IMG/VR virus record: IMGVR_UViG_3300050033_000419
Span: 1-57,437 of that record
From: a virus
Lineage: Duplodnaviria; Caudoviricetes
Direction: 5' to 3' (one strand)
DNA: 57,437 nt
Made by a program: the position numbers and the translations under genes. Under the pieces are notes generated by a model. It saw nothing but the letters and a program-made list of their open reading frames with translations, searched no databases and was not told the DNA's origin. Numbering within the stretch: position 1 is the first letter of the stretch; each line of letters starts with the position of its first letter. Shown piece after piece: positions 27,601 through 32,866 of this stretch.

Positions 27601-27855
27601 CTACGCTCTCGCCACCGGCTTCATCCCGGCAAGTTGCAGTCGATTCTGTTGCGTTTTATCGAAGAAGTCGGACGCGACAGCATCGCCGTGCACTTCCATA
27701 AATTTCACTTCTACCTTCGCCGACTCGATGAGCTGATGTGCTACCCCACAGATCGCCTTCGAGCGTTCAACCTCCATCGGTTTTTCGTCGTCCTTCAACT
27801 TCTCGAGGGTCTCGAATAAGTGGTTACGTAGGTCTTGCATCTTGTTCCTTGGCAT
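27601..27855 (-). CDS. Conserved phage protein accompanying HNH gene
   Basis: NKMQDLRNHLFETLEKLKD...ERSKAI...IESAKVE. Confidence 0.7.
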   Translation of the reverse strand: MPRNKMQDLRNHLFETLEKLKDDEKPMEVERSKAICGVAHQLIESAKVEVKFMEVHGDAVASDFFDKTQQNRLQLAGMKPVARA

Positions 27856-28681
27856 CGGGCCTCTCCCGTTTATTGATCTGGCGTTGCAATGCACCGACCG
27901 CCTGAATGGCGAGCGCGATATCTTTCGGGTAGCGATGGAGTGAATTACGCCGCATGTTGTCGACGAGTGTGATGAGCTCTAAATTCCCGATCACGCAGTT
28001 TGCACGGTTACCGTCTTTGAAAATCACGATGTGGCCGGCGGGAATGGGCCCGTTGTGCTGCTCCCAGATGTGGCGATTCAGCAGCGGCCAGATTTTCGTA
28101 TTGCCGAATCCCGTATTCTCTCCGGGGTGCCACTCACGAATCTTGATCCTCAGAAACCCATCGCCGTCCGGCCTGACCGTTCCAACCGGACACCAATTCT
28201 TCGCCGCGATACCTTGGCGCACGCCCGGCTTGAATTGAGTCTCAGCCATGCGGCCAGGAGCCCAACCAGGACGACGTAGGCCCTTGTTTGCGGGCACGTG
28301 ACCCTTTGGGTATCGGTAGGCTTTCCCGACGTTGTCGCCGCGCCGAAGGCGACAGGCGGCTTCACTTGCCAGGTATTCAGCCGTTTTCTTCAGCCCTATT
28401 TTGTCGGCATGTTGGTAAATGCCTGACACGGTACGCCCCAACTCGGCGGCGATTTTGGAAGTCTCGTGGTGCGGATACTGCTCGCGCACAATTGCCAATT
28501 CCTCGGCGCTCCACGGCTTGCGCGTGTCCCGCTTTACGCGGAGAACCTTCGCTCGGCTTTTGATTGCGATGGCGGATCGCCCGAGAGACTTTCCGAGTTC
28601 TTCCGGCGTGACCTTCGCGTACATCTCGCGCAGGATGGCCTCGTCTTGCGGCGTCCACGCGCGGCCTACCACTACCGTCAT
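27824..28681 (-). CDS. HNH endonuclease with N-terminal Myb/HTH-like repeats
   Basis: WTPQDEAILRE / WSAEELAIVRE; IWEQHNGPIPAGHIVIFKDGNRANC..NLELI. Confidence 0.88.
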   Translation of the reverse strand: MTVVVGRAWTPQDEAILREMYAKVTPEELGKSLGRSAIAIKSRAKVLRVKRDTRKPWSAEELAIVREQYPHHETSKIAAELGRTVSGIYQHADKIGLKKTAEYLASEAACRLRRGDNVGKAYRYPKGHVPANKGLRRPGWAPGRMAETQFKPGVRQGIAAKNWCPVGTVRPDGDGFLRIKIREWHPGENTGFGNTKIWPLLNRHIWEQHNGPIPAGHIVIFKDGNRANCVIGNLELITLVDNMRRNSLHRYPKDIALAIQAVGALQRQINKRERPDAKEQDARPT

Positions 28682-28851
28682 GCGCTCACCGCCCGGTTGC
28701 TCGCCGCGTGGTGCTCGTCATAAAGCAATTCATGGAGTTCGGTGAGCGTGTCCATCTCGCCGACCATGTCGGACGTAGTGCGATTCGGATGCCGCCGGAT
28801 TTCTCCCAGAAGGTCCATGCAGGCGGTGATCTGGCGAAGGCGGTCGTTCAT
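28678..28851 (-). CDS. Small hypothetical protein (57 aa)
   Basis: GGAGG SD; ATGA coupling on both sides. Confidence 0.55.
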   Translation of the reverse strand: MNDRLRQITACMDLLGEIRRHPNRTTSDMVGEMDTLTELHELLYDEHHAASNRAVSA

Positions 28852-29108
28852 CGCTTATCCTCCTGTTTGTCCCAAGGCAGGCGCGCCTGGTTGTGAGTTG
28901 GGCAATGGTCCTTGTCCTGGCCCACTTCCGTTGAGCAGCGATCGCACATCTTCCGGTCGCAGGTTCTTCCGCCGCCAAAGCCGTAATCGCACAGCTTGGT
29001 GTGTGGGCGCATGTGGCAGAAGCTGCAGGGTGCAGGCCTTGCTTGGCGTCCACGTCCGCAAGCGATCGCGAAGTCTCCGTTACCGAGGTTGACTTTTTCG
29101 CAGCTCAC
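28848..29108 (-). CDS. Cys-rich zinc-finger protein
   Basis: CSFC...LCDY...TCDRKMCDRC...DHCPTH. Confidence 0.7.
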   Translation of the reverse strand: MSCEKVNLGNGDFAIACGRGRQARPAPCSFCHMRPHTKLCDYGFGGGRTCDRKMCDRCSTEVGQDKDHCPTHNQARLPWDKQEDKR

Positions 29109-30571
29109 CCGCGGGCCCCCGCCGGATACTGGCGAACTCGGAAGCGCTCCGGCCATTCCGAAGCGTCTCCACCCTTGCGGCTCTCAAGGCCAAGAGTTGT
29201 GATTGTTTCGGTCCTCTGGCCACGCTTACCGGATGGGATTGGCGGATCGTGCTTAACAATCTGGACGACGACCGGCATCGCTCCAAGCTGTTTCACAAAA
29301 CAGGCAACCGAAGCGGCCTTGCATTGCTCGATGATTGACTCGATCCATTTAAGTTCGCAGTGGCGCGCGCCCGGACCACTCTCTCCGCCAATTACGCACC
29401 ACGAGAGTTCGCCCACAGCTGGCCTCGGGCGATCTTCGACACCGTCCTGTCCGAAACCCCGAAGTCCTTCGCGATGACCAACAATCTCTCTCCCAACGCC
29501 CGCCTCGTCCGGATCTGCGCTACGTCTGAGTTCGTCAATTTCGCCATCGAGTTTGCCACGCCCGCCTGATTGCAGGCGTGTCCAACCTTCAACACTCTCG
29601 TGGCGTGAATCTGTTGCTCTGTATACGTCGCCAGCATGAGATTGTCGGGATGGTTGTGCATCTTCTTCCCGTCTTCGTGGTTCACTGTCAATCCGGGAGG
29701 AATCGCTTTCTTGAAGTGTCTGTAAACCAACCTGTGAGCTGCTACATGAACCCGAACTCCGTTGATCATTACTCGAACTTGAAGATAATTGCCGAACGGT
29801 CTTTCCGCGCGGACGCGTTTGCAGGGACGGCTCACTACTTCCTTCTTCCATCTGTCCCATCCGCGCTTGCGTATCCGCCATATCGTTCCGTCCATCTCTA
29901 TCGCCAAATCGCCGTTCAAAACCGCTTGATAGGCGAACTCCTCGTTCCCGGTCGGTTTCATTTATCCACCTCGTCAGGTCTATTGGGCCGAGTAACGGCT
30001 CGGCGCTAATCCATCGCACCGCCGCCGGTGTTTGCAAGAGCAGCGGGATCCGCTCGTCAGCGCGCGGCTGATCTTCCACACTCACACCCAGCCACACGTT
30101 CTTGAGCGGCATCACCGGCGCGAATGGCGACATGCCGGTCACCTTGCTCATCACCGACTTGATGCGGGTGGGCAGGAGCGGATCCTGTAAGTAGGTCATC
30201 ATCCGCTCGGCCCGTTTCGTCAGGATCTGGTAGGTGTGCCAGTTCGCCACTGCCATCACAGCGAACATGCGATCGATAAACTTGTCCGGGACGCCATCGT
30301 GAAAGAGGTCGCTCATCGAGTTCACGAAGATACGTTGCGGCTTACGCCATTCGATCGGCTCGCGCAGCTTCTCTTCCACCAGCCTGATCTTCCCTGTCCA
30401 TTGCGGATGTCCGTTGGTGCTTTTTACCAGGCCTGCATAGGAGCCGCCCGGGCGGGAGTGACGGATCGCTTGGCGCTCGGCGTAGCAGTTCGCACAGCCA
30501 GGACTGACCCGCGTGCAGCCTCGCACCGCGTTCCACACCTTGTCGCACCATTCGATCTTTGAGTCTGCCAT
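29105..30571 (-). CDS. Gp37/Gp68 family (DUF5131, radical-SAM-like) protein with ~190-aa insertion
   Basis: SKIEWCD, GCTRVSPGCANCYA, IFVNSMSDLFH, ILTKR, ISAEPLLG...VIGGESG...FVKQLG. Confidence 0.92.
   Translation of the reverse strand: MADSKIEWCDKVWNAVRGCTRVSPGCANCYAERQAIRHSRPGGSYAGLVKSTNGHPQWTGKIRLVEEKLREPIEWRKPQRIFVNSMSDLFHDGVPDKFIDRMFAVMAVANWHTYQILTKRAERMMTYLQDPLLPTRIKSVMSKVTGMSPFAPVMPLKNVWLGVSVEDQPRADERIPLLLQTPAAVRWISAEPLLGPIDLTRWINETDRERGVRLSSGFERRFGDRDGRNDMADTQARMGQMEEGSSEPSLQTRPRGKTVRQLSSSSSNDQRSSGSCSSSQVGLQTLQESDSSRIDSEPRRREEDAQPSRQSHAGDVYRATDSRHESVEGWTRLQSGGRGKLDGEIDELRRSADPDEAGVGREIVGHREGLRGFGQDGVEDRPRPAVGELSWCVIGGESGPGARHCELKWIESIIEQCKAASVACFVKQLGAMPVVVQIVKHDPPIPSGKRGQRTETITTLGLESRKGGDASEWPERFRVRQYPAGARG
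29392..29961 (-). CDS. HNH homing endonuclease nested in the +1 frame of the DUF5131 gene
   Basis: GAGGTG SD; AHRLVYRHF...VNHEDGKKMHNHPDNL; C-terminal AKLTNSDVAQIR...IAKDFGVS HTH. Confidence 0.88.
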   Translation of the reverse strand: MKPTGNEEFAYQAVLNGDLAIEMDGTIWRIRKRGWDRWKKEVVSRPCKRVRAERPFGNYLQVRVMINGVRVHVAAHRLVYRHFKKAIPPGLTVNHEDGKKMHNHPDNLMLATYTEQQIHATRVLKVGHACNQAGVANSMAKLTNSDVAQIRTRRALGERLLVIAKDFGVSDRTVSKIARGQLWANSRGA

Positions 30572-30651
30572 CTCTCGCCTCAAGTACTGCAGAACTTCAA
30601 AAGTGGGGCGGTCCGGAGGAGCCGCCCCGTTTGGGGGAACAACAGCAACGA

Positions 30652-31041
30652 TTAAGTAGTCGGCGGGGTCGCGGAAGCTGCTGCGGTCGACGGCGGGTTG
30701 ACCGTCTGGTCTTCCGTGGTCAGCGAAGCATTCGCGGTAGTGACGGCCGTCTGGATTGAGGTGACCGATGCCGCGAGCTGATCGAGCTGCGCCTGGGTAA
30801 CGGGCGTGCCGGCGGCGATCTGCGCCTTAAGCGCGGCGATCTCGGCGTTCACGTCGGCCGAGAGCGTGGCGATCTCGGCGTTGGTTGCCTGCACCGCTGT
30901 GGTGAGGTCGGTGAGCTGCTGTGAGAGGGTTGCGAATGTGTTTCCTTGCGTTGCCATCATTTCCTCCAAGTGCATTACGTGTGCGAGCAGATGAGCTTCG
31001 AACGCCATCTCTCGGTGATCGGGGTGAGAGCAGCCAAACAT
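30652..31041 (-). CDS. Coiled-coil Ala/Thr-rich protein
   Basis: GGAGG SD; heptad pattern; followed by a GC hairpin. Confidence 0.65.
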   Translation of the reverse strand: MFGCSHPDHREMAFEAHLLAHVMHLEEMMATQGNTFATLSQQLTDLTTAVQATNAEIATLSADVNAEIAALKAQIAAGTPVTQAQLDQLAASVTSIQTAVTTANASLTTEDQTVNPPSTAAASATPPTT

Positions 31042-31049
31042 GCCGCCTC

Positions 31050-31514
31050 CTATGGGGTTGGACCTAAATCTGCTGCTATAGCCGTTACGCGCTTACTGCC
31101 CTTCGCAGAGTTGCACCAGCGATGCATCGCCTGAATGTTGTCCTGGTGATCGTCTCGCCAGGCTCCCCCATTGCCGCGCGGATCGATGTGGTCCGGGACC
31201 ACGTCTGCAATGTTTTCGAACGGCTGGCCGCAGCCGCCCATCTCTGGATCGGGGCACAGTCCCTTCTGCTCCCGAATCTTGCGGTGCAGCAGTTTTTTCA
31301 TCTCGGCCTTGTTGCGAATCTCCCGGTAGCCGCGGGGATGATGCTCATCGTCGACCTTCGTGACCGGAGCCTTGAACTTTGGCGTCTTCGAGAAGCTGTT
31401 GATCTTCTTCGCGTCGCGGCCGCAGCAGTTGAATCTGCTATGGATCGGACAGCGTTCGTTTTTGCCCAGAGCTTTCATGCGTCCCCTAAGACTCCTGCGC
31501 GAGGGAGCGCGCAT
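31050..31514 (-). CDS. HNH endonuclease
   Basis: PDHIDPRGNGG...DNIQAMHRWCNSAKGSK. Confidence 0.85.
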   Translation of the reverse strand: MRAPSRRSLRGRMKALGKNERCPIHSRFNCCGRDAKKINSFSKTPKFKAPVTKVDDEHHPRGYREIRNKAEMKKLLHRKIREQKGLCPDPEMGGCGQPFENIADVVPDHIDPRGNGGAWRDDHQDNIQAMHRWCNSAKGSKRVTAIAADLGPTP

Positions 31515-32811
31515 ATTGCGCCCCGGTCAGGCCGAACGTTGAGGCAATCGCATTCATCGCCGTGAGCTTTTGCGGCGCTCCGAGATCGCCATCCGTTTGC
31601 AATGGACAAAGCTCAGGATGAACACGCAGGAAGTAGGACTTACGAGAACCGTCCGGCTCCTGGGTTGAGTTCAAGACCTTGACCATTACGAGCGGTTCAT
31701 CGTCGTGGATCTCGGTGCGATACAGCTCGCCGAACTCGTCTTCGTGAATCCGCTCAGCCTTGCTGTCGACGAGGTAACGCGCGATTCCGTAGCGATCGAG
31801 CATCACCCGGCGGACTTCGACGTTCTCTTCCTTCTGGATGTGCTCGACGGTGATGAATTCCGGACGCATGATCACAAACTCCGGAACCATGACGCCATGC
31901 CAGAAGTGAAGGTTCTCGATGTCGGAGTCGAGCGCCGGACCGGTCGCGTTGTGCAGGCGCTTGCCGGTGGCGGCTTCTTCAACGTGAACGGTCGGCTTTG
32001 CGAACCAATAGAGGGTGTCCTCGGTCCAGTGCAACACCCACGCGCCGGCGAGGAAGGCGTGGAAGATAGGCTCGGACCATTCCTCCACTTTGGCTTTACC
32101 GAGCTGGCGCGCACCGAGATAGGTCGTTGCCAGCAGCGACGCTTCGAATCTCCACCACCACCAGCCCGGCGACTGGATACACCATGCAGCAAAGCGCTGG
32201 ATGGCTTCGTTTTCGTCCATCGCGTCCCTCGCGTCCCTCGCGGCCATCGCGTCCCTCGCGTCCATCGCGTCCCTCGCGGCCCTCGCGTCCATCGCGTCCC
32301 TCGCGTCCCTCGCGGCCATCGCGTCCCTCGCGTCCATCGCGTCCATCGCGGCCATCGCGTCCCTCGCGTCCCTCGCGGCCATCGCGTCCCTCGCGTCCAT
32401 CGCGTCCATCGCGTCCATCGCGGCCATCGCGGCCATCGCGGCCCTCGCGGCCATCGCGTCCATCGCGGCCCTCGCGTCCATCGCGTCCATCGCGGCCCTC
32501 GCGGCCATCGCGTCCCTCGCGTCCATCGCGTCCCTCGCGTCCATCGCGGCCATCGCGGCCCTCGCGTCCATCGCGCGATTTCGCTTCGCGAAATCGGAGA
32601 GCACTGCTTCCACGTAGCGCTTCAATGAAGGGTGCTGCTCCAACTTCCAATCGGCACGAAGCCGCTCGATCTTTCTCTCGACACCGAGAGCTTTCAGGTA
32701 ACGGTCGAGGTGCAGTTCCACGGCTGCTTCATCGATCACGCCTGGATAAGTGCATGCCGCGGTGTACCGTGCCAGGTCTTCGCTTGCCTTCGTCGTCGCT
32801 ATGATTGCCAT
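31486..32811 (-). CDS. DUF6745 protein with internal tripeptide repeat
   Basis: RLHNATGPAL...FWHGV...ENVEVRRVM...VLNSTQEPDGSRKSYFLRVHP...AIASTFG. Confidence 0.85.
   Translation of the reverse strand: MAIIATTKASEDLARYTAACTYPGVIDEAAVELHLDRYLKALGVERKIERLRADWKLEQHPSLKRYVEAVLSDFAKRNRAMDARAAMAAMDARDAMDARDAMAARAAMDAMDARAAMDAMAARAAMAAMAAMDAMDAMDARDAMAARDARDAMAAMDAMDARDAMAARDARDAMDARAARDAMDARDAMAARDARDAMDENEAIQRFAAWCIQSPGWWWWRFEASLLATTYLGARQLGKAKVEEWSEPIFHAFLAGAWVLHWTEDTLYWFAKPTVHVEEAATGKRLHNATGPALDSDIENLHFWHGVMVPEFVIMRPEFITVEHIQKEENVEVRRVMLDRYGIARYLVDSKAERIHEDEFGELYRTEIHDDEPLVMVKVLNSTQEPDGSRKSYFLRVHPELCPLQTDGDLGAPQKLTAMNAIASTFGLTGAQYARSLAQES
32215..32575. repeat. ~40 tandem 9-bp units GCG-A(T/G)G-G(A/C)C (minus strand)
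   Basis: Units cgcgtccat / cgcgtccct / cgcggccat / cgcggccct. Confidence 0.97.
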
Positions 32812-32866
32812 TGGTTCCTCTGCCAGATCGAAATGAAAATGGTGGGCGGCACCACCGCCCACGCGG

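What the first reader, a model, noticed from the sequence alone, without database searches (positions are those of the whole stretch)
29105..30571. HNH endonuclease wholly overprinted inside an intact DUF5131 gene
A complete 189-aa HNH plus HTH ORF (29961-29392), with its own SD (GAGGTG), lies in the +1 frame between the conserved EPLLG and GGESG motifs of the Gp37/Gp68 protein. The host frame has no stop over these ~190 codons and reads as a disordered S/R/G/D-rich loop. By rough estimate several stops would be expected in that frame by chance, so dual coding looks selected. No group I/II intron or intein hallmarks were seen. This suggests a splicing-free way for a homing endonuclease to live inside its target gene.
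Basis: partly seen in the sequence, partly recalled or inferred. Interest (0 to 1): 0.8.

Follow-up and report, generated by a model that had tools for sequence, protein, structure and literature searches.

The report
Hidden out-of-frame HNH gene in DUF5131
A selfish DNA-cutting (HNH homing endonuclease) gene sits in a shifted reading frame inside a phage radical-SAM-like gene, and selection keeps the host frame free of stop codons, so the host protein is probably made whole with a floppy loop of about 190 residues and no splicing; a 2025 paper described this layout for phage methylase genes.

Summary
A 189-aa HNH_3 ORF (29392-29961, minus strand) lies +1 inside a DUF5131 gene (29105-30571). 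It sits between the EPLLG and GGESG motifs. The host frame has 0 stops across it, where synonymous shuffling expects 4.95 (P(0)=0.0014).

The pattern is general. In 110 distinct relatives from viral, genome and metagenome contigs, 83 of 84 copies nested in DUF5131 have no host-frame stop (mean expected 5.3). Twenty of 26 non-nested copies have 2-26 stops in that frame.

No intron or intein signature was found. The HNH stop codon lies inside the host's conserved W-V/I-I/V codons. Relatives carry either an SD or a TATAAT box exactly 7 nt before the ATG, never both.

Most likely reading: an unspliced in-frame cassette, read through as a disordered loop (AF2 pLDDT below 50).

The kind is already in print: the ShiLan domain in mycobacteriophage methylases (PMC11855218). 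This scan had also noted the DUF5131 case on at least seven other genomes. So this is a new member of a known kind, with strong comparative support. Expression, read-through and homing remain untested.

The parts
29105..30571 (-). DUF5131 (phage Gp37/Gp68, radical-SAM superfamily subgroup) host gene, 488 aa from the ATG; the stop-free frame runs from the TTG at 30583
   Evidence: PF07505 E 4.7e-78; phrog_2045; DUF5131 listed among radical SAM subgroups. The C23/C30/C33 and EPL/GGESG invariant columns are kept.
29963..30571 (-). Host N-terminal part, up to residue 207 of the 492-aa numbering, ending EPLLGPIDLTRWI
   Evidence: residues 8-206 match profile 2-177; pLDDT above 90 for residues 11-205.
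29402..29962 (-). The insertion as read in the host frame: 187 codons, no stop, rich in R/S/G/E/D, predicted disordered
   Evidence: pLDDT below 50 for 227-345 and 356-382. It is absent from 118 of the 119 nearest host relatives by length and from the insert-free relatives aligned.
29392..29961 (-). HNH homing-endonuclease gene (189 aa: N-terminal beta domain, HNH_3, C-terminal helical/HTH part), +1 relative to the host
   Evidence: 99 homologs, up to 74% identity; PDB 1u3e I-HmuI, E 1.7e-6; model pLDDT 86.9; Foldseek top hit 1u3e, E 3.7e-5.
29967..29972 (-). Shine-Dalgarno-like GAGGTG, written in host codons T-R-W, 5 nt before the HNH ATG; an in-frame TAA lies directly before the ATG
   Evidence: upstream stop distance 0; GAGG 7 nt upstream; SD class.
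29392..29394 (-). HNH stop codon TAA, formed by host codons V397 (GTA) and I398 (ATT) of the conserved W-x-V-I-GGESG block
   Evidence: the same arrangement is seen in the 76 relatives listed.
29105..29401 (-). Host C-terminal part, starting W395-C-V-I-GGESG, in the same frame as the N part
   Evidence: pLDDT 90-96 for residues about 391-440.

Best explanation
A mobile cassette made almost entirely of an I-HmuI-like HNH homing-endonuclease gene sits in a naturally length-variable surface linker of a phage DUF5131 gene.

Shown:
- The cassette length is a multiple of three.
- Its HNH frame is +1 to the host.
- Its stop codon is built from host codons of the conserved W-V/I-I/V-GGESG block.
- Selection removes every stop from the host frame.

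Inferred:
- Ribosomes translating the DUF5131 mRNA read straight through. They make a full-length enzyme with a disordered, hydrophilic loop of about 187 residues, with no RNA or protein splicing.
- The HNH protein is made separately by internal initiation at its own SD and ATG. In many relatives it would instead come from a leaderless transcript started by a TATAAT box 7 nt before the ATG.
- The nuclease cuts insert-free DUF5131 alleles during co-infection and is copied in by repair.
- The fixed frame relation follows from the genetic code. In this frame every potential stop depends on a T at an HNH wobble position, which can always be replaced synonymously.
For: - Window: 0 host-frame stops against 4.95 expected, P(0)=0.0014.
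- Relatives: 110 distinct copies were examined. Of 84 nested in DUF5131, 83 have 0 host-frame stops (mean expected 5.26). Wobble-T before risky codons is 1/3795 against 1893/10665 elsewhere. Of 26 other copies, 20 have 2-26 stops.
- Every copy with DUF5131 detected on both sides has its two host halves in one frame and the HNH at +1.
- Two insertion sites exist. In L021, L080 and L130 both sites are occupied in one gene.
- GGESG and the other host invariants are kept downstream of the cassette.
- 118 of the 119 nearest host relatives listed are 275-403 aa, so they lack the insert. The linker there varies naturally in length.
- AF2 models a confident core and an insert with pLDDT below 50.
- No intron, intein or unusual RNA fold was found: Rfam gave 0 matches in the window at E<=10 and 0 intron hits in 20 nested loci. 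Pfam finds only DUF5131 in the host frame. The fold z-score is -1.14.
- The HNH is conserved and resembles I-HmuI.
- Expression signals are mutually exclusive in 79 nested copies: 29 TATAAT-like boxes at exactly 7 nt, 33 SD, 0 with both.
- The other alternative frame would hold at least one unavoidable stop (Met followed by I/M/T/N/K) in 68 of 84 copies.
- HNH wobble positions differ by 37-62% in near pairs, so the loop peptide itself is not conserved.
- 42 other 50%-cluster representatives match the loop. 9 of 10 tested are long DUF5131 proteins.
- The published precedent has the same anatomy (PMC11855218).
Against: - There is no expression evidence of any kind. No RNA run holds the locus.
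- No insert-free allele of this same phage was found, so the exact cassette borders and recent mobility in this lineage are not shown.
- The function of DUF5131 is unknown, so tolerance of the loop is inferred only from conservation of the downstream half.
- The nested copies share ancestry and are not 84 independent events. The site B copies form one clade. The tree is a quick one with many unsupported forks.
- One nested copy (L121) has a host-frame stop, and one (L092) has a host frameshift.
- In the pair comparison the pairs were chosen by HNH similarity. That biases the result 'HNH less diverged than host' (8 of 9 pairs).
Confidence: 0.78

Rival explanations
1. The anatomy is the same, but the HNH is no longer a homing element. 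It has been domesticated. It would then serve as a fixed accessory nuclease or DNA-binding module of the phage, or as a partner of the DUF5131 enzyme, and be inherited vertically.
For: - The family is old and diverse: 36-73% identity among nested copies.
- No empty allele of this phage was seen in four peat runs.
- The window carries two more HNH genes beside the locus.
- The ShiLan authors raise the same possibility.
Against: - Distribution is sporadic. The nearest host relatives lack the insert.
- Close relatives are freestanding, and two lie directly upstream of intact DUF5131 genes (L002, L027).
- The family occupies two sites, and a distant relative sits in a C5 methylase (L046).
- Decayed remnants exist (L086, L089).
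- The HNH is less diverged than its host flank in 8 of 9 near pairs, though the pair choice was biased.
Confidence: 0.1
2. The segment is removed after all, by an undescribed ribozyme or intron, by protein-level excision, or by ribosomal bypassing. The open host frame would then be a by-product or a safeguard for unprocessed molecules.
For: - Absence from Rfam and Pfam cannot exclude an unknown class.
- The ShiLan authors also leave splicing as an unlikely possibility.
Against: - If the segment were removed, stops in the host frame would be neutral. Yet 83 of 84 copies have none.
- The ORF fills the insert, from about 5-20 nt inside its 5' end into host codons at the 3' end. That leaves no room for a ribozyme core.
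- No Rfam intron hit was found in the window or in 20 loci.
- The fold z-score is -1.14.
- Host-frame residues at the insert ends are not conserved and are not intein-like.
- No stop follows a take-off codon, as bypassing of the T4 gene 60 kind would need (that requirement is recalled, not checked here).
Confidence: 0.05
3. The host is expressed as two separately translated halves that assemble, like genes split by freestanding endonuclease genes. The C half would be made by reinitiation after the HNH stop.
For: In some relatives the HNH stop overlaps a possible GTG start (GTGA) in the host frame. TGA is the HNH stop in 25 of 76 copies, and several of those read GTGA.
Against: - This does not explain why the host frame is stop-free through the whole cassette.
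- The window and many relatives have no start codon at the junction. In the window the host codons there are GTA ATT.
- Without a stop, the N half would in any case be translated on into the C half.
Confidence: 0.04
4. The open host frame arose by chance in a GC-rich sequence, and the host gene is simply broken by the insertion.
For: GC is 0.49-0.60 across the insert, which lowers stop frequency somewhat.
Against: - P(0)=0.0014 in the window alone.
- The pattern recurs in 83 of 84 relatives, including copies at 43-46% GC with 9-11 stops expected.
- The third frame has 13 stops.
- Freestanding relatives have stops in the same frame.
Confidence: 0.005

Closest known systems
ShiLan domain and the Pacc40 gp60 insertion: hidden out-of-frame HNH endonucleases in mycobacteriophage DNA methylase genes (Arsenault, Gosselin & Gogarten 2025, PMC11855218; earlier PMC9957025)
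   Same: - The insertion lies in a conserved phage gene and adds no stop in the host frame.
- An HNH ORF of about 190 aa in another frame fills nearly the whole insert. It starts a few bases inside and ends with a stop in the last bases (TAAC there, TAAT here).
- No intron or intein signature is found.
- The in-frame reading is predicted to be a loop.
- Distribution is disjunct.
- Freestanding relatives lie directly upstream of intact host genes (Tiff81 and Sashimi there; L002 and L027 here).
   Different: - The host is DUF5131, not a methylase. The paper's main text has 0 mentions of Gp37, Gp68 or DUF.
- The HNH here is I-HmuI-like with a C-terminal helical part. The ShiLan HNH is described as flanked by zinc fingers.
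- By my arithmetic from the paper's wording (GTG at insert positions 18-20, 'third frame'), the frame relation there is the other one.
- The paper finds no RBS and proposes leaderless GTG starts. Here the start is ATG with an SD, and in relatives ATG with a TATAAT box at 7 nt.
- The family here is large, spans several bacterial phyla and uses two sites.
- Sequence relatedness to the ShiLan HNH was not tested. No ShiLan sequence was on hand.
Freestanding homing endonuclease genes of phages, including those that split host genes (recalled: T-even mob/seg genes, Aeh1 mobE in nrdA; only the T4 mobE paper PMC2790892 was seen, as a search listing)
   Same: Both are HNH-family selfish nucleases without an intron or intein. 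They lie in or next to the conserved gene they probably target.
   Different: Freestanding genes lie between genes, or they cut the host gene into two separately translated pieces. Here the host frame runs through the nuclease gene without a break.
Intron-encoded I-HmuI (PDB 1u3e)
   Same: It is the nearest solved relative by sequence (E 1.7e-6) and by fold (Foldseek E 3.7e-5, 183 columns). The order of domains is the same.
   Different: I-HmuI lies in a self-splicing group I intron. Here no ribozyme is present, and there is no room for one.
Overlapping genes made by overprinting in viruses (review PMC8227390, search listing only)
   Same: Two proteins are read from one stretch of DNA in different frames.
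   Different: In overprinting the new ORF arises de novo inside an old gene. Here the folded, conserved protein (the HNH) is imported, and the new reading is the host-frame loop.

Membership tests
Hidden out-of-frame HNH insertion (ShiLan type) | The insertion in a conserved host gene is absent from close homologs | tested here: met
   118 of the 119 nearest relatives listed are 275-403 aa; alignment shows the 187-residue block only in the window protein.
Hidden out-of-frame HNH insertion (ShiLan type) | The insertion adds no stop codon in the host frame | tested here: met
   (0 stops, 4.95 expected). (83 of 84 nested relatives).
Hidden out-of-frame HNH insertion (ShiLan type) | An HNH ORF in an alternate frame fills the insert, with its stop in the last bases | tested here: met
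   the ATG lies at about the first codon of the insert, and the TAA lies in host codons V397-I398.
Hidden out-of-frame HNH insertion (ShiLan type) | No self-splicing RNA or intein features | tested here: met
   This is absence of known signatures only.
Hidden out-of-frame HNH insertion (ShiLan type) | Sequence homology of the HNH to the ShiLan or Pacc40 HNH | not tested
Mycobacterium is not among the ten commonest first words of the organism names of the 145 phage records matched (16 further names were not shown).
HNH homing endonuclease (HNH_3, I-HmuI-like) | HNH_3 motif with conserved His/Asn residues | tested here: met
   (PF13392, 28.9 bits, cut-off 24.8). (H76, N94, H95, N103, N107 and H119 invariant in 33 sequences). 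(alignment to I-HmuI residues 39-112).
HNH homing endonuclease (HNH_3, I-HmuI-like) | Fold and domain order of a solved homing HNH enzyme | tested here: met
   pLDDT 86.9. 1u3e is the only Foldseek hit with E<=0.001. TM-score is only 0.37-0.39, as expected for an extended multi-domain protein.
HNH homing endonuclease (HNH_3, I-HmuI-like) | Site-specific cleavage of the insert-free allele, followed by copying into it | not testable with these tools
   Only indirect support: sporadic distribution, two sites, freestanding relatives.
DUF5131 / phage Gp37-Gp68 (radical SAM superfamily subgroup) | Pfam PF07505 match over the whole profile, and conserved Cys triad | tested here: met
   (262.5 bits, two stretches). 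(C23, C30, C33 invariant). (listed as a radical SAM subgroup; one passage seen).
Group I / group II intron | Ribozyme core detectable, with non-coding flanks around the ORF | tested here: not met
   (no Rfam match at E<=10). (0 intron hits in 20 nested loci). (no non-coding room). (z -1.14).
Intein | In-frame Hint/splicing blocks, Cys/Ser/Thr at the junctions, His-Asn at the end | tested here: not met
   (only DUF5131 in the host frame). (the ends of the host-frame insert are variable). (the insert is disordered). The nuclease is in another frame.
Overprinted (de novo) overlapping gene | The nested ORF has no homologs outside the host gene and arose within it | tested here: not met
   the HNH has many homologs, including freestanding ones. 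The block is an insertion.

The most novel reading that the evidence does not exclude
Frame-hidden cassettes may be a widespread third way of life for homing endonuclease genes, beside introns/inteins and freestanding genes. The cassette would be a portable unit with three parts:
- its own expression signal, either an SD or a TATAAT box placed for a leaderless mRNA;
- an ORF that is open in two frames;
- a stop codon borrowed from conserved host codons.

Such cassettes have colonised at least two sites of DUF5131 and also C5 methylases, in phages of many phyla. They switch between nested and freestanding states and lose the second open frame once released. Their frame relation is dictated by the genetic code, because only this frame can be cleared of stops by synonymous changes alone.
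Probability: 0.5. Interest if true: 0.62.

Novelty: new member of a known kind. Interest (0 to 1): 0.5.

Why it matters
Homing endonuclease genes are thought to survive inside essential genes only if an intron or intein removes them. This family adds large comparative support to the 2025 ShiLan report of another solution: stay in the mRNA and the protein, but keep the host frame open.

It gives a clean natural experiment on selection in overlapping frames, because nested and freestanding relatives can be compared. It suggests simple rules for such cassettes:
- the frame relation;
- a stop codon made from host codons;
- two mutually exclusive expression signals.

It flags a source of mis-annotation. 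Gene callers report one long 'DUF5131' protein and miss the nuclease. It also shows that DUF5131 tolerates loops of about 190 residues at two places.

Tried and rejected
I used the search for related loci instead, as the tool message advised.
- A single-protein scan of viral contigs found no relative. The alignment-based scan then worked.
- The word-based search with the host-frame loop found only the window's own protein. The full HMMER search later found 42 other representatives, so one search was a sensitivity limit, not absence.
- Cultured phages: 145 records match the HNH, all below 60% identity and annotated as freestanding. None has the nested layout.
- RNA evidence: no RNA holder was listed, so expression could not be examined.
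- DNA contigs of four peat-metagenome runs were laid on the window. They carry the same insert-bearing allele. X3 has one contig spanning 29145-30328 with no difference. No credible empty allele was seen.
- The single joint (29389 to 30204, one contig, 26 letters on the shorter side, at 85% likeness) is below the tool's own credibility mark. I give it no weight.
- Chance, intron, intein, bypassing and split-gene readings were rejected for the reasons given under Rival explanations.
- No sigma-70-like promoter was found on the gene's strand in 29000-30800. This is a weak negative from a simple consensus scan.
- The careful maximum-likelihood tree did not finish in the time allowed. The quick tree was used. 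Its claims are limited to the site B clade (SH-aLRT 92) and to the scatter of freestanding rows (8 changes needed, only 1 forced by well-supported branches).
- Pair divergences cannot separate mobility from dual-coding constraint, and the pairs were chosen by HNH similarity.
- The paper's supplements and GitHub files could not be seen. They may list further hosts of hidden HNH genes.
Full report
**What is there.** On the minus strand, a stop-free frame runs from 30583 to 29105 (492 codons from a TTG). The likely start is the ATG at 30571, giving 488 aa. Pfam reads this frame as DUF5131 in two stretches: residues 8-206 match profile positions 2-177, and the rest follows after a gap (E 4.7e-78).

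Inside it, at offset 622 (frame +1), lies a 189-aa ORF at 29392-29961. This ORF matches HNH_3 (E 8.8e-7). An in-frame TAA lies directly before its ATG, and GAGGTG lies 5-10 nt upstream.

The HNH stop codon TAA is formed by host codons V397 and I398. These belong to the conserved W-x-V-I-GGESG block. The window is a phage genome with large terminase, portal and tail genes.

**Is it more than chance?** The host frame has no stop over the overlap, while the third frame has 13. Synonymous shuffling of the HNH codons (20,000 trials) gives a mean of 4.95 host-frame stops, with P(0)=0.0014. Shuffling the codon order gives a mean of 6.49, with P(0)=0.00035.

**Relatives.** The HNH has 99 database homologs, up to 74% identical and nearly all about 186 aa. 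An alignment of 33 of them was used to fetch loci:
- 35 viral loci;
- 18 genome loci;
- 80 metagenome loci, the best 80 of 289 relatives.

Before counting I dropped 20 loci whose HNH core was identical to another locus. I also dropped 7 loci whose match spanned 100 residues or fewer. Three loci carry two copies. With the window, that leaves 110 distinct copies.

Of these, 84 are flanked by DUF5131 sequence. The flank is always in the frame that lies at offset 2 of the HNH. Where both host halves are seen, they share one frame. Of the 84, 83 have no host-frame stop, against a mean expectation of 5.26. The exception, L121, has one stop.

In these copies a T-ending HNH codon precedes a codon starting AA, AG or GA once in 3795 cases. 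Before other codons the count is 1893 in 10665.

Of the other 26 copies, 20 have 2-26 stops in the same frame (mean over all 26: 6.1 observed, 8.5 expected). Their T-ending codon counts are 158/1085 against 678/2778.

The six remaining stop-free copies are accounted for as follows:
- L046: a relative nested in a C5 DNA methylase.
- L016 and L019: two in-frame mini-remnants of DUF5131.
- L090: a copy with a C-terminal remnant of DUF5131.
- L092: a copy whose host has a frameshift just upstream.
- L033: a short match compatible with chance (P(0)=0.19).

So freestanding relatives serve as a natural control, and the open second frame goes with being nested.

**Anatomy of the family.** There are two insertion sites. 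Site A, the window's site, lies between EPLLGPxDL and W-V/I-I/V-x-GGESG. Site B lies between the LTKR helix region and WPLPNVWLG. In L021, L080 and L130 both sites are filled in one gene. In the quick tree the site B copies form one clade with SH-aLRT 92.

At site A the HNH stop (TAA 31, TGA 25, TAG 20 of the 76 copies listed, both sites) falls within the host's conserved codons. At site B it falls just before WPLPN.

At the 5' end, I examined 79 nested copies with enough upstream sequence. Of these, 29 have a TATAAT-like hexamer (at most one mismatch; 14 exact) exactly 7 nt before the ATG. Any other spacing gives 0-3 such matches. Another 33 have an SD word 3-12 nt upstream. None has both, and 17 have neither. 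The window belongs to the SD class. A TATAAT box at that distance is what a leaderless mRNA starting at the ATG would need. That reading is inference.

**The host.** DUF5131 is listed as a radical SAM superfamily subgroup (PMC9477430, one passage seen). The Cys triad and the other invariant columns are kept in the window protein.

Among the 119 nearest relatives listed by N-terminal similarity (49-66% identity), 118 are 275-403 aa and thus lack the insert. The linker at site A varies naturally in length among them.

AlphaFold2 with 61 sequences gives a confident core: pLDDT above 90 for residues 11-205 and for about 391-440. The insert scores below 50 for 227-345 and 356-382. The loop is 61% R, S, G, E and D.

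A full HMMER search with the loop found 42 other cluster representatives, mostly 440-545 aa, matching at the same place. Of 10 tested, 9 are DUF5131 in two or three stretches.

**The nuclease.** The profile of the family matches I-HmuI (PDB 1u3e) with E 1.7e-6. The match covers the HRLV...NH.DG.K..N block. The model (pLDDT 86.9) has 1u3e as its only Foldseek match with E<=0.001. His and Asn columns are invariant in 33 sequences.

**What it is not.**
- Rfam found nothing at E<=10 in 28600-31100.
- Rfam found no intron in 20 nested loci.
- The insert RNA folds no better than shuffles: z -1.14, 20 shuffles.
- The ORF leaves no non-coding room for a ribozyme.
- The host-frame reading has no Hint or intein match and has variable ends.
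- If the segment were removed at the RNA or protein level, host-frame stops would be neutral. They are absent.

**Mechanism.** The best reading is an unspliced, in-frame cassette. The DUF5131 protein is translated through it and carries a disordered loop. The HNH is made separately from its own start. The nuclease spreads the cassette to empty alleles.

The fixed frame relation has a simple rationale from the genetic code. In this frame a stop needs a T at an HNH wobble position, and every T-ending codon has a C-ending synonym. In the other frame, Met followed by I, M, T, N or K gives an unavoidable TGA. This occurs in 68 of 84 nested copies.

Near pairs differ at 37-62% of HNH wobble positions. 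So the loop peptide itself is free to change, and the constraint is essentially 'no stop'. In 8 of 9 such pairs the HNH protein is less diverged than the host N part, which fits mobility. However, the pairs were picked by HNH similarity, and dual coding may also slow the cassette.

**What is known.** Five full-text searches found one precedent. This is the ShiLan domain and the Pacc40 gp60 insertion in mycobacteriophage DNA methylases (PMC11855218). I read its outline, Results and Discussion. The earlier paper, PMC9957025, I saw only as a search listing.

The anatomy there is the same: no host-frame stop, an HNH of about 195 aa in another frame, its stop in the last four bases, no intron or intein, and freestanding relatives upstream of intact host genes.

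That paper's main text does not mention Gp37, Gp68 or DUF. No paper in the library joins 'Gp37 Gp68' with 'homing endonuclease'. 'DUF5131' occurs in one paper only.

This scan had already noted the same layout in DUF5131 on at least seven other genomes, and in methyltransferases on one. The reading in those notes was the same.

**Verdict.** This is a new member of a known kind, with unusually strong comparative evidence and a few added rules. Expression, read-through and homing remain to be shown at the bench.

Noticed in passing
window 27824-28681 (-) and 31050-31514 (-): Two further freestanding HNH endonuclease genes flank the DUF5131 gene. The first is 285 aa (HNH_3, E 3e-16, phrog_1891). 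The second is 154 aa (PF01844 HNH, E 1.2e-4). The region is a cluster of nuclease genes.
   Followed up: partly
window 31486-32862 (-): A 458-aa protein with a run of about 130 residues of D/A/R/M repeats (DARDAM/AARAAM-like), followed by a DUF6745 domain (E 2.3e-35). GC rises to 0.73-0.75 at 32200-32600.
   Followed up: no
L046:1225-3330 (+), HNH match 2501-2836: A distant HNH relative (29% identity) lies in the same frame relation inside a C5 cytosine DNA methylase gene (PF00145, E 9.6e-31; phrog_116), with no host-frame stop. The contig is from a Gemmatimonadaceae MAG. This links the family to the published methylase cases.
   Followed up: partly
L016:1933-3339 and L019:2338-3216: These are mini-remnants. 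A short DUF5131 N-terminus, the HNH cassette and a DUF5131 C-terminal tail are all still in one stop-free frame, with the enzyme core missing. L016 shares the 5' TACAAT-type motif with its tree neighbour L015.
   Followed up: partly
L086:2326-3195, L089:2477-3346, L090:2422-3201: The HNH gene is followed by a DUF5131 C-terminal remnant only. In L086 and L089 the remnant lies in the HNH's own frame after the stop, and 3-5 stops have appeared in the former host frame (9-10 expected). This looks like recent decay.
   Followed up: partly
P0127 (513 aa) and P0242 (681 aa): DUF5131 proteins carry an HNH-like domain in frame with the host. In P0127 it lies at site B (HNH_3 20.9 bits and NUMOD4, both below the Pfam cut-offs). 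In P0242 HNH_3 scores E 2.7e-10 at residues 166-209, and a loop like the window's lies at 434-615. So DUF5131 hosts HNH insertions in more than one mode.
   Followed up: partly
L002:2423-4029 and L027:2264-3950: A freestanding relative of the HNH (61% and 39% identity, with 8 and 6 stops in the second frame) lies directly upstream of an uninterrupted DUF5131 gene. This matches the Tiff81/Sashimi arrangement in the ShiLan paper.
   Followed up: partly
L055:619-868 (+): A HEARO RNA (RF02033, 110.8 bits) lies about 1.6 kb upstream of a nested HNH/DUF5131 locus.
   Followed up: no
L092:79-1041 and L121:1-1059: Two imperfect nested copies. L092 has a host frameshift just before EPLL. L121 has one host-frame stop inside the cassette. 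Both are short metagenome contigs, so either decay or assembly error is possible.
   Followed up: no
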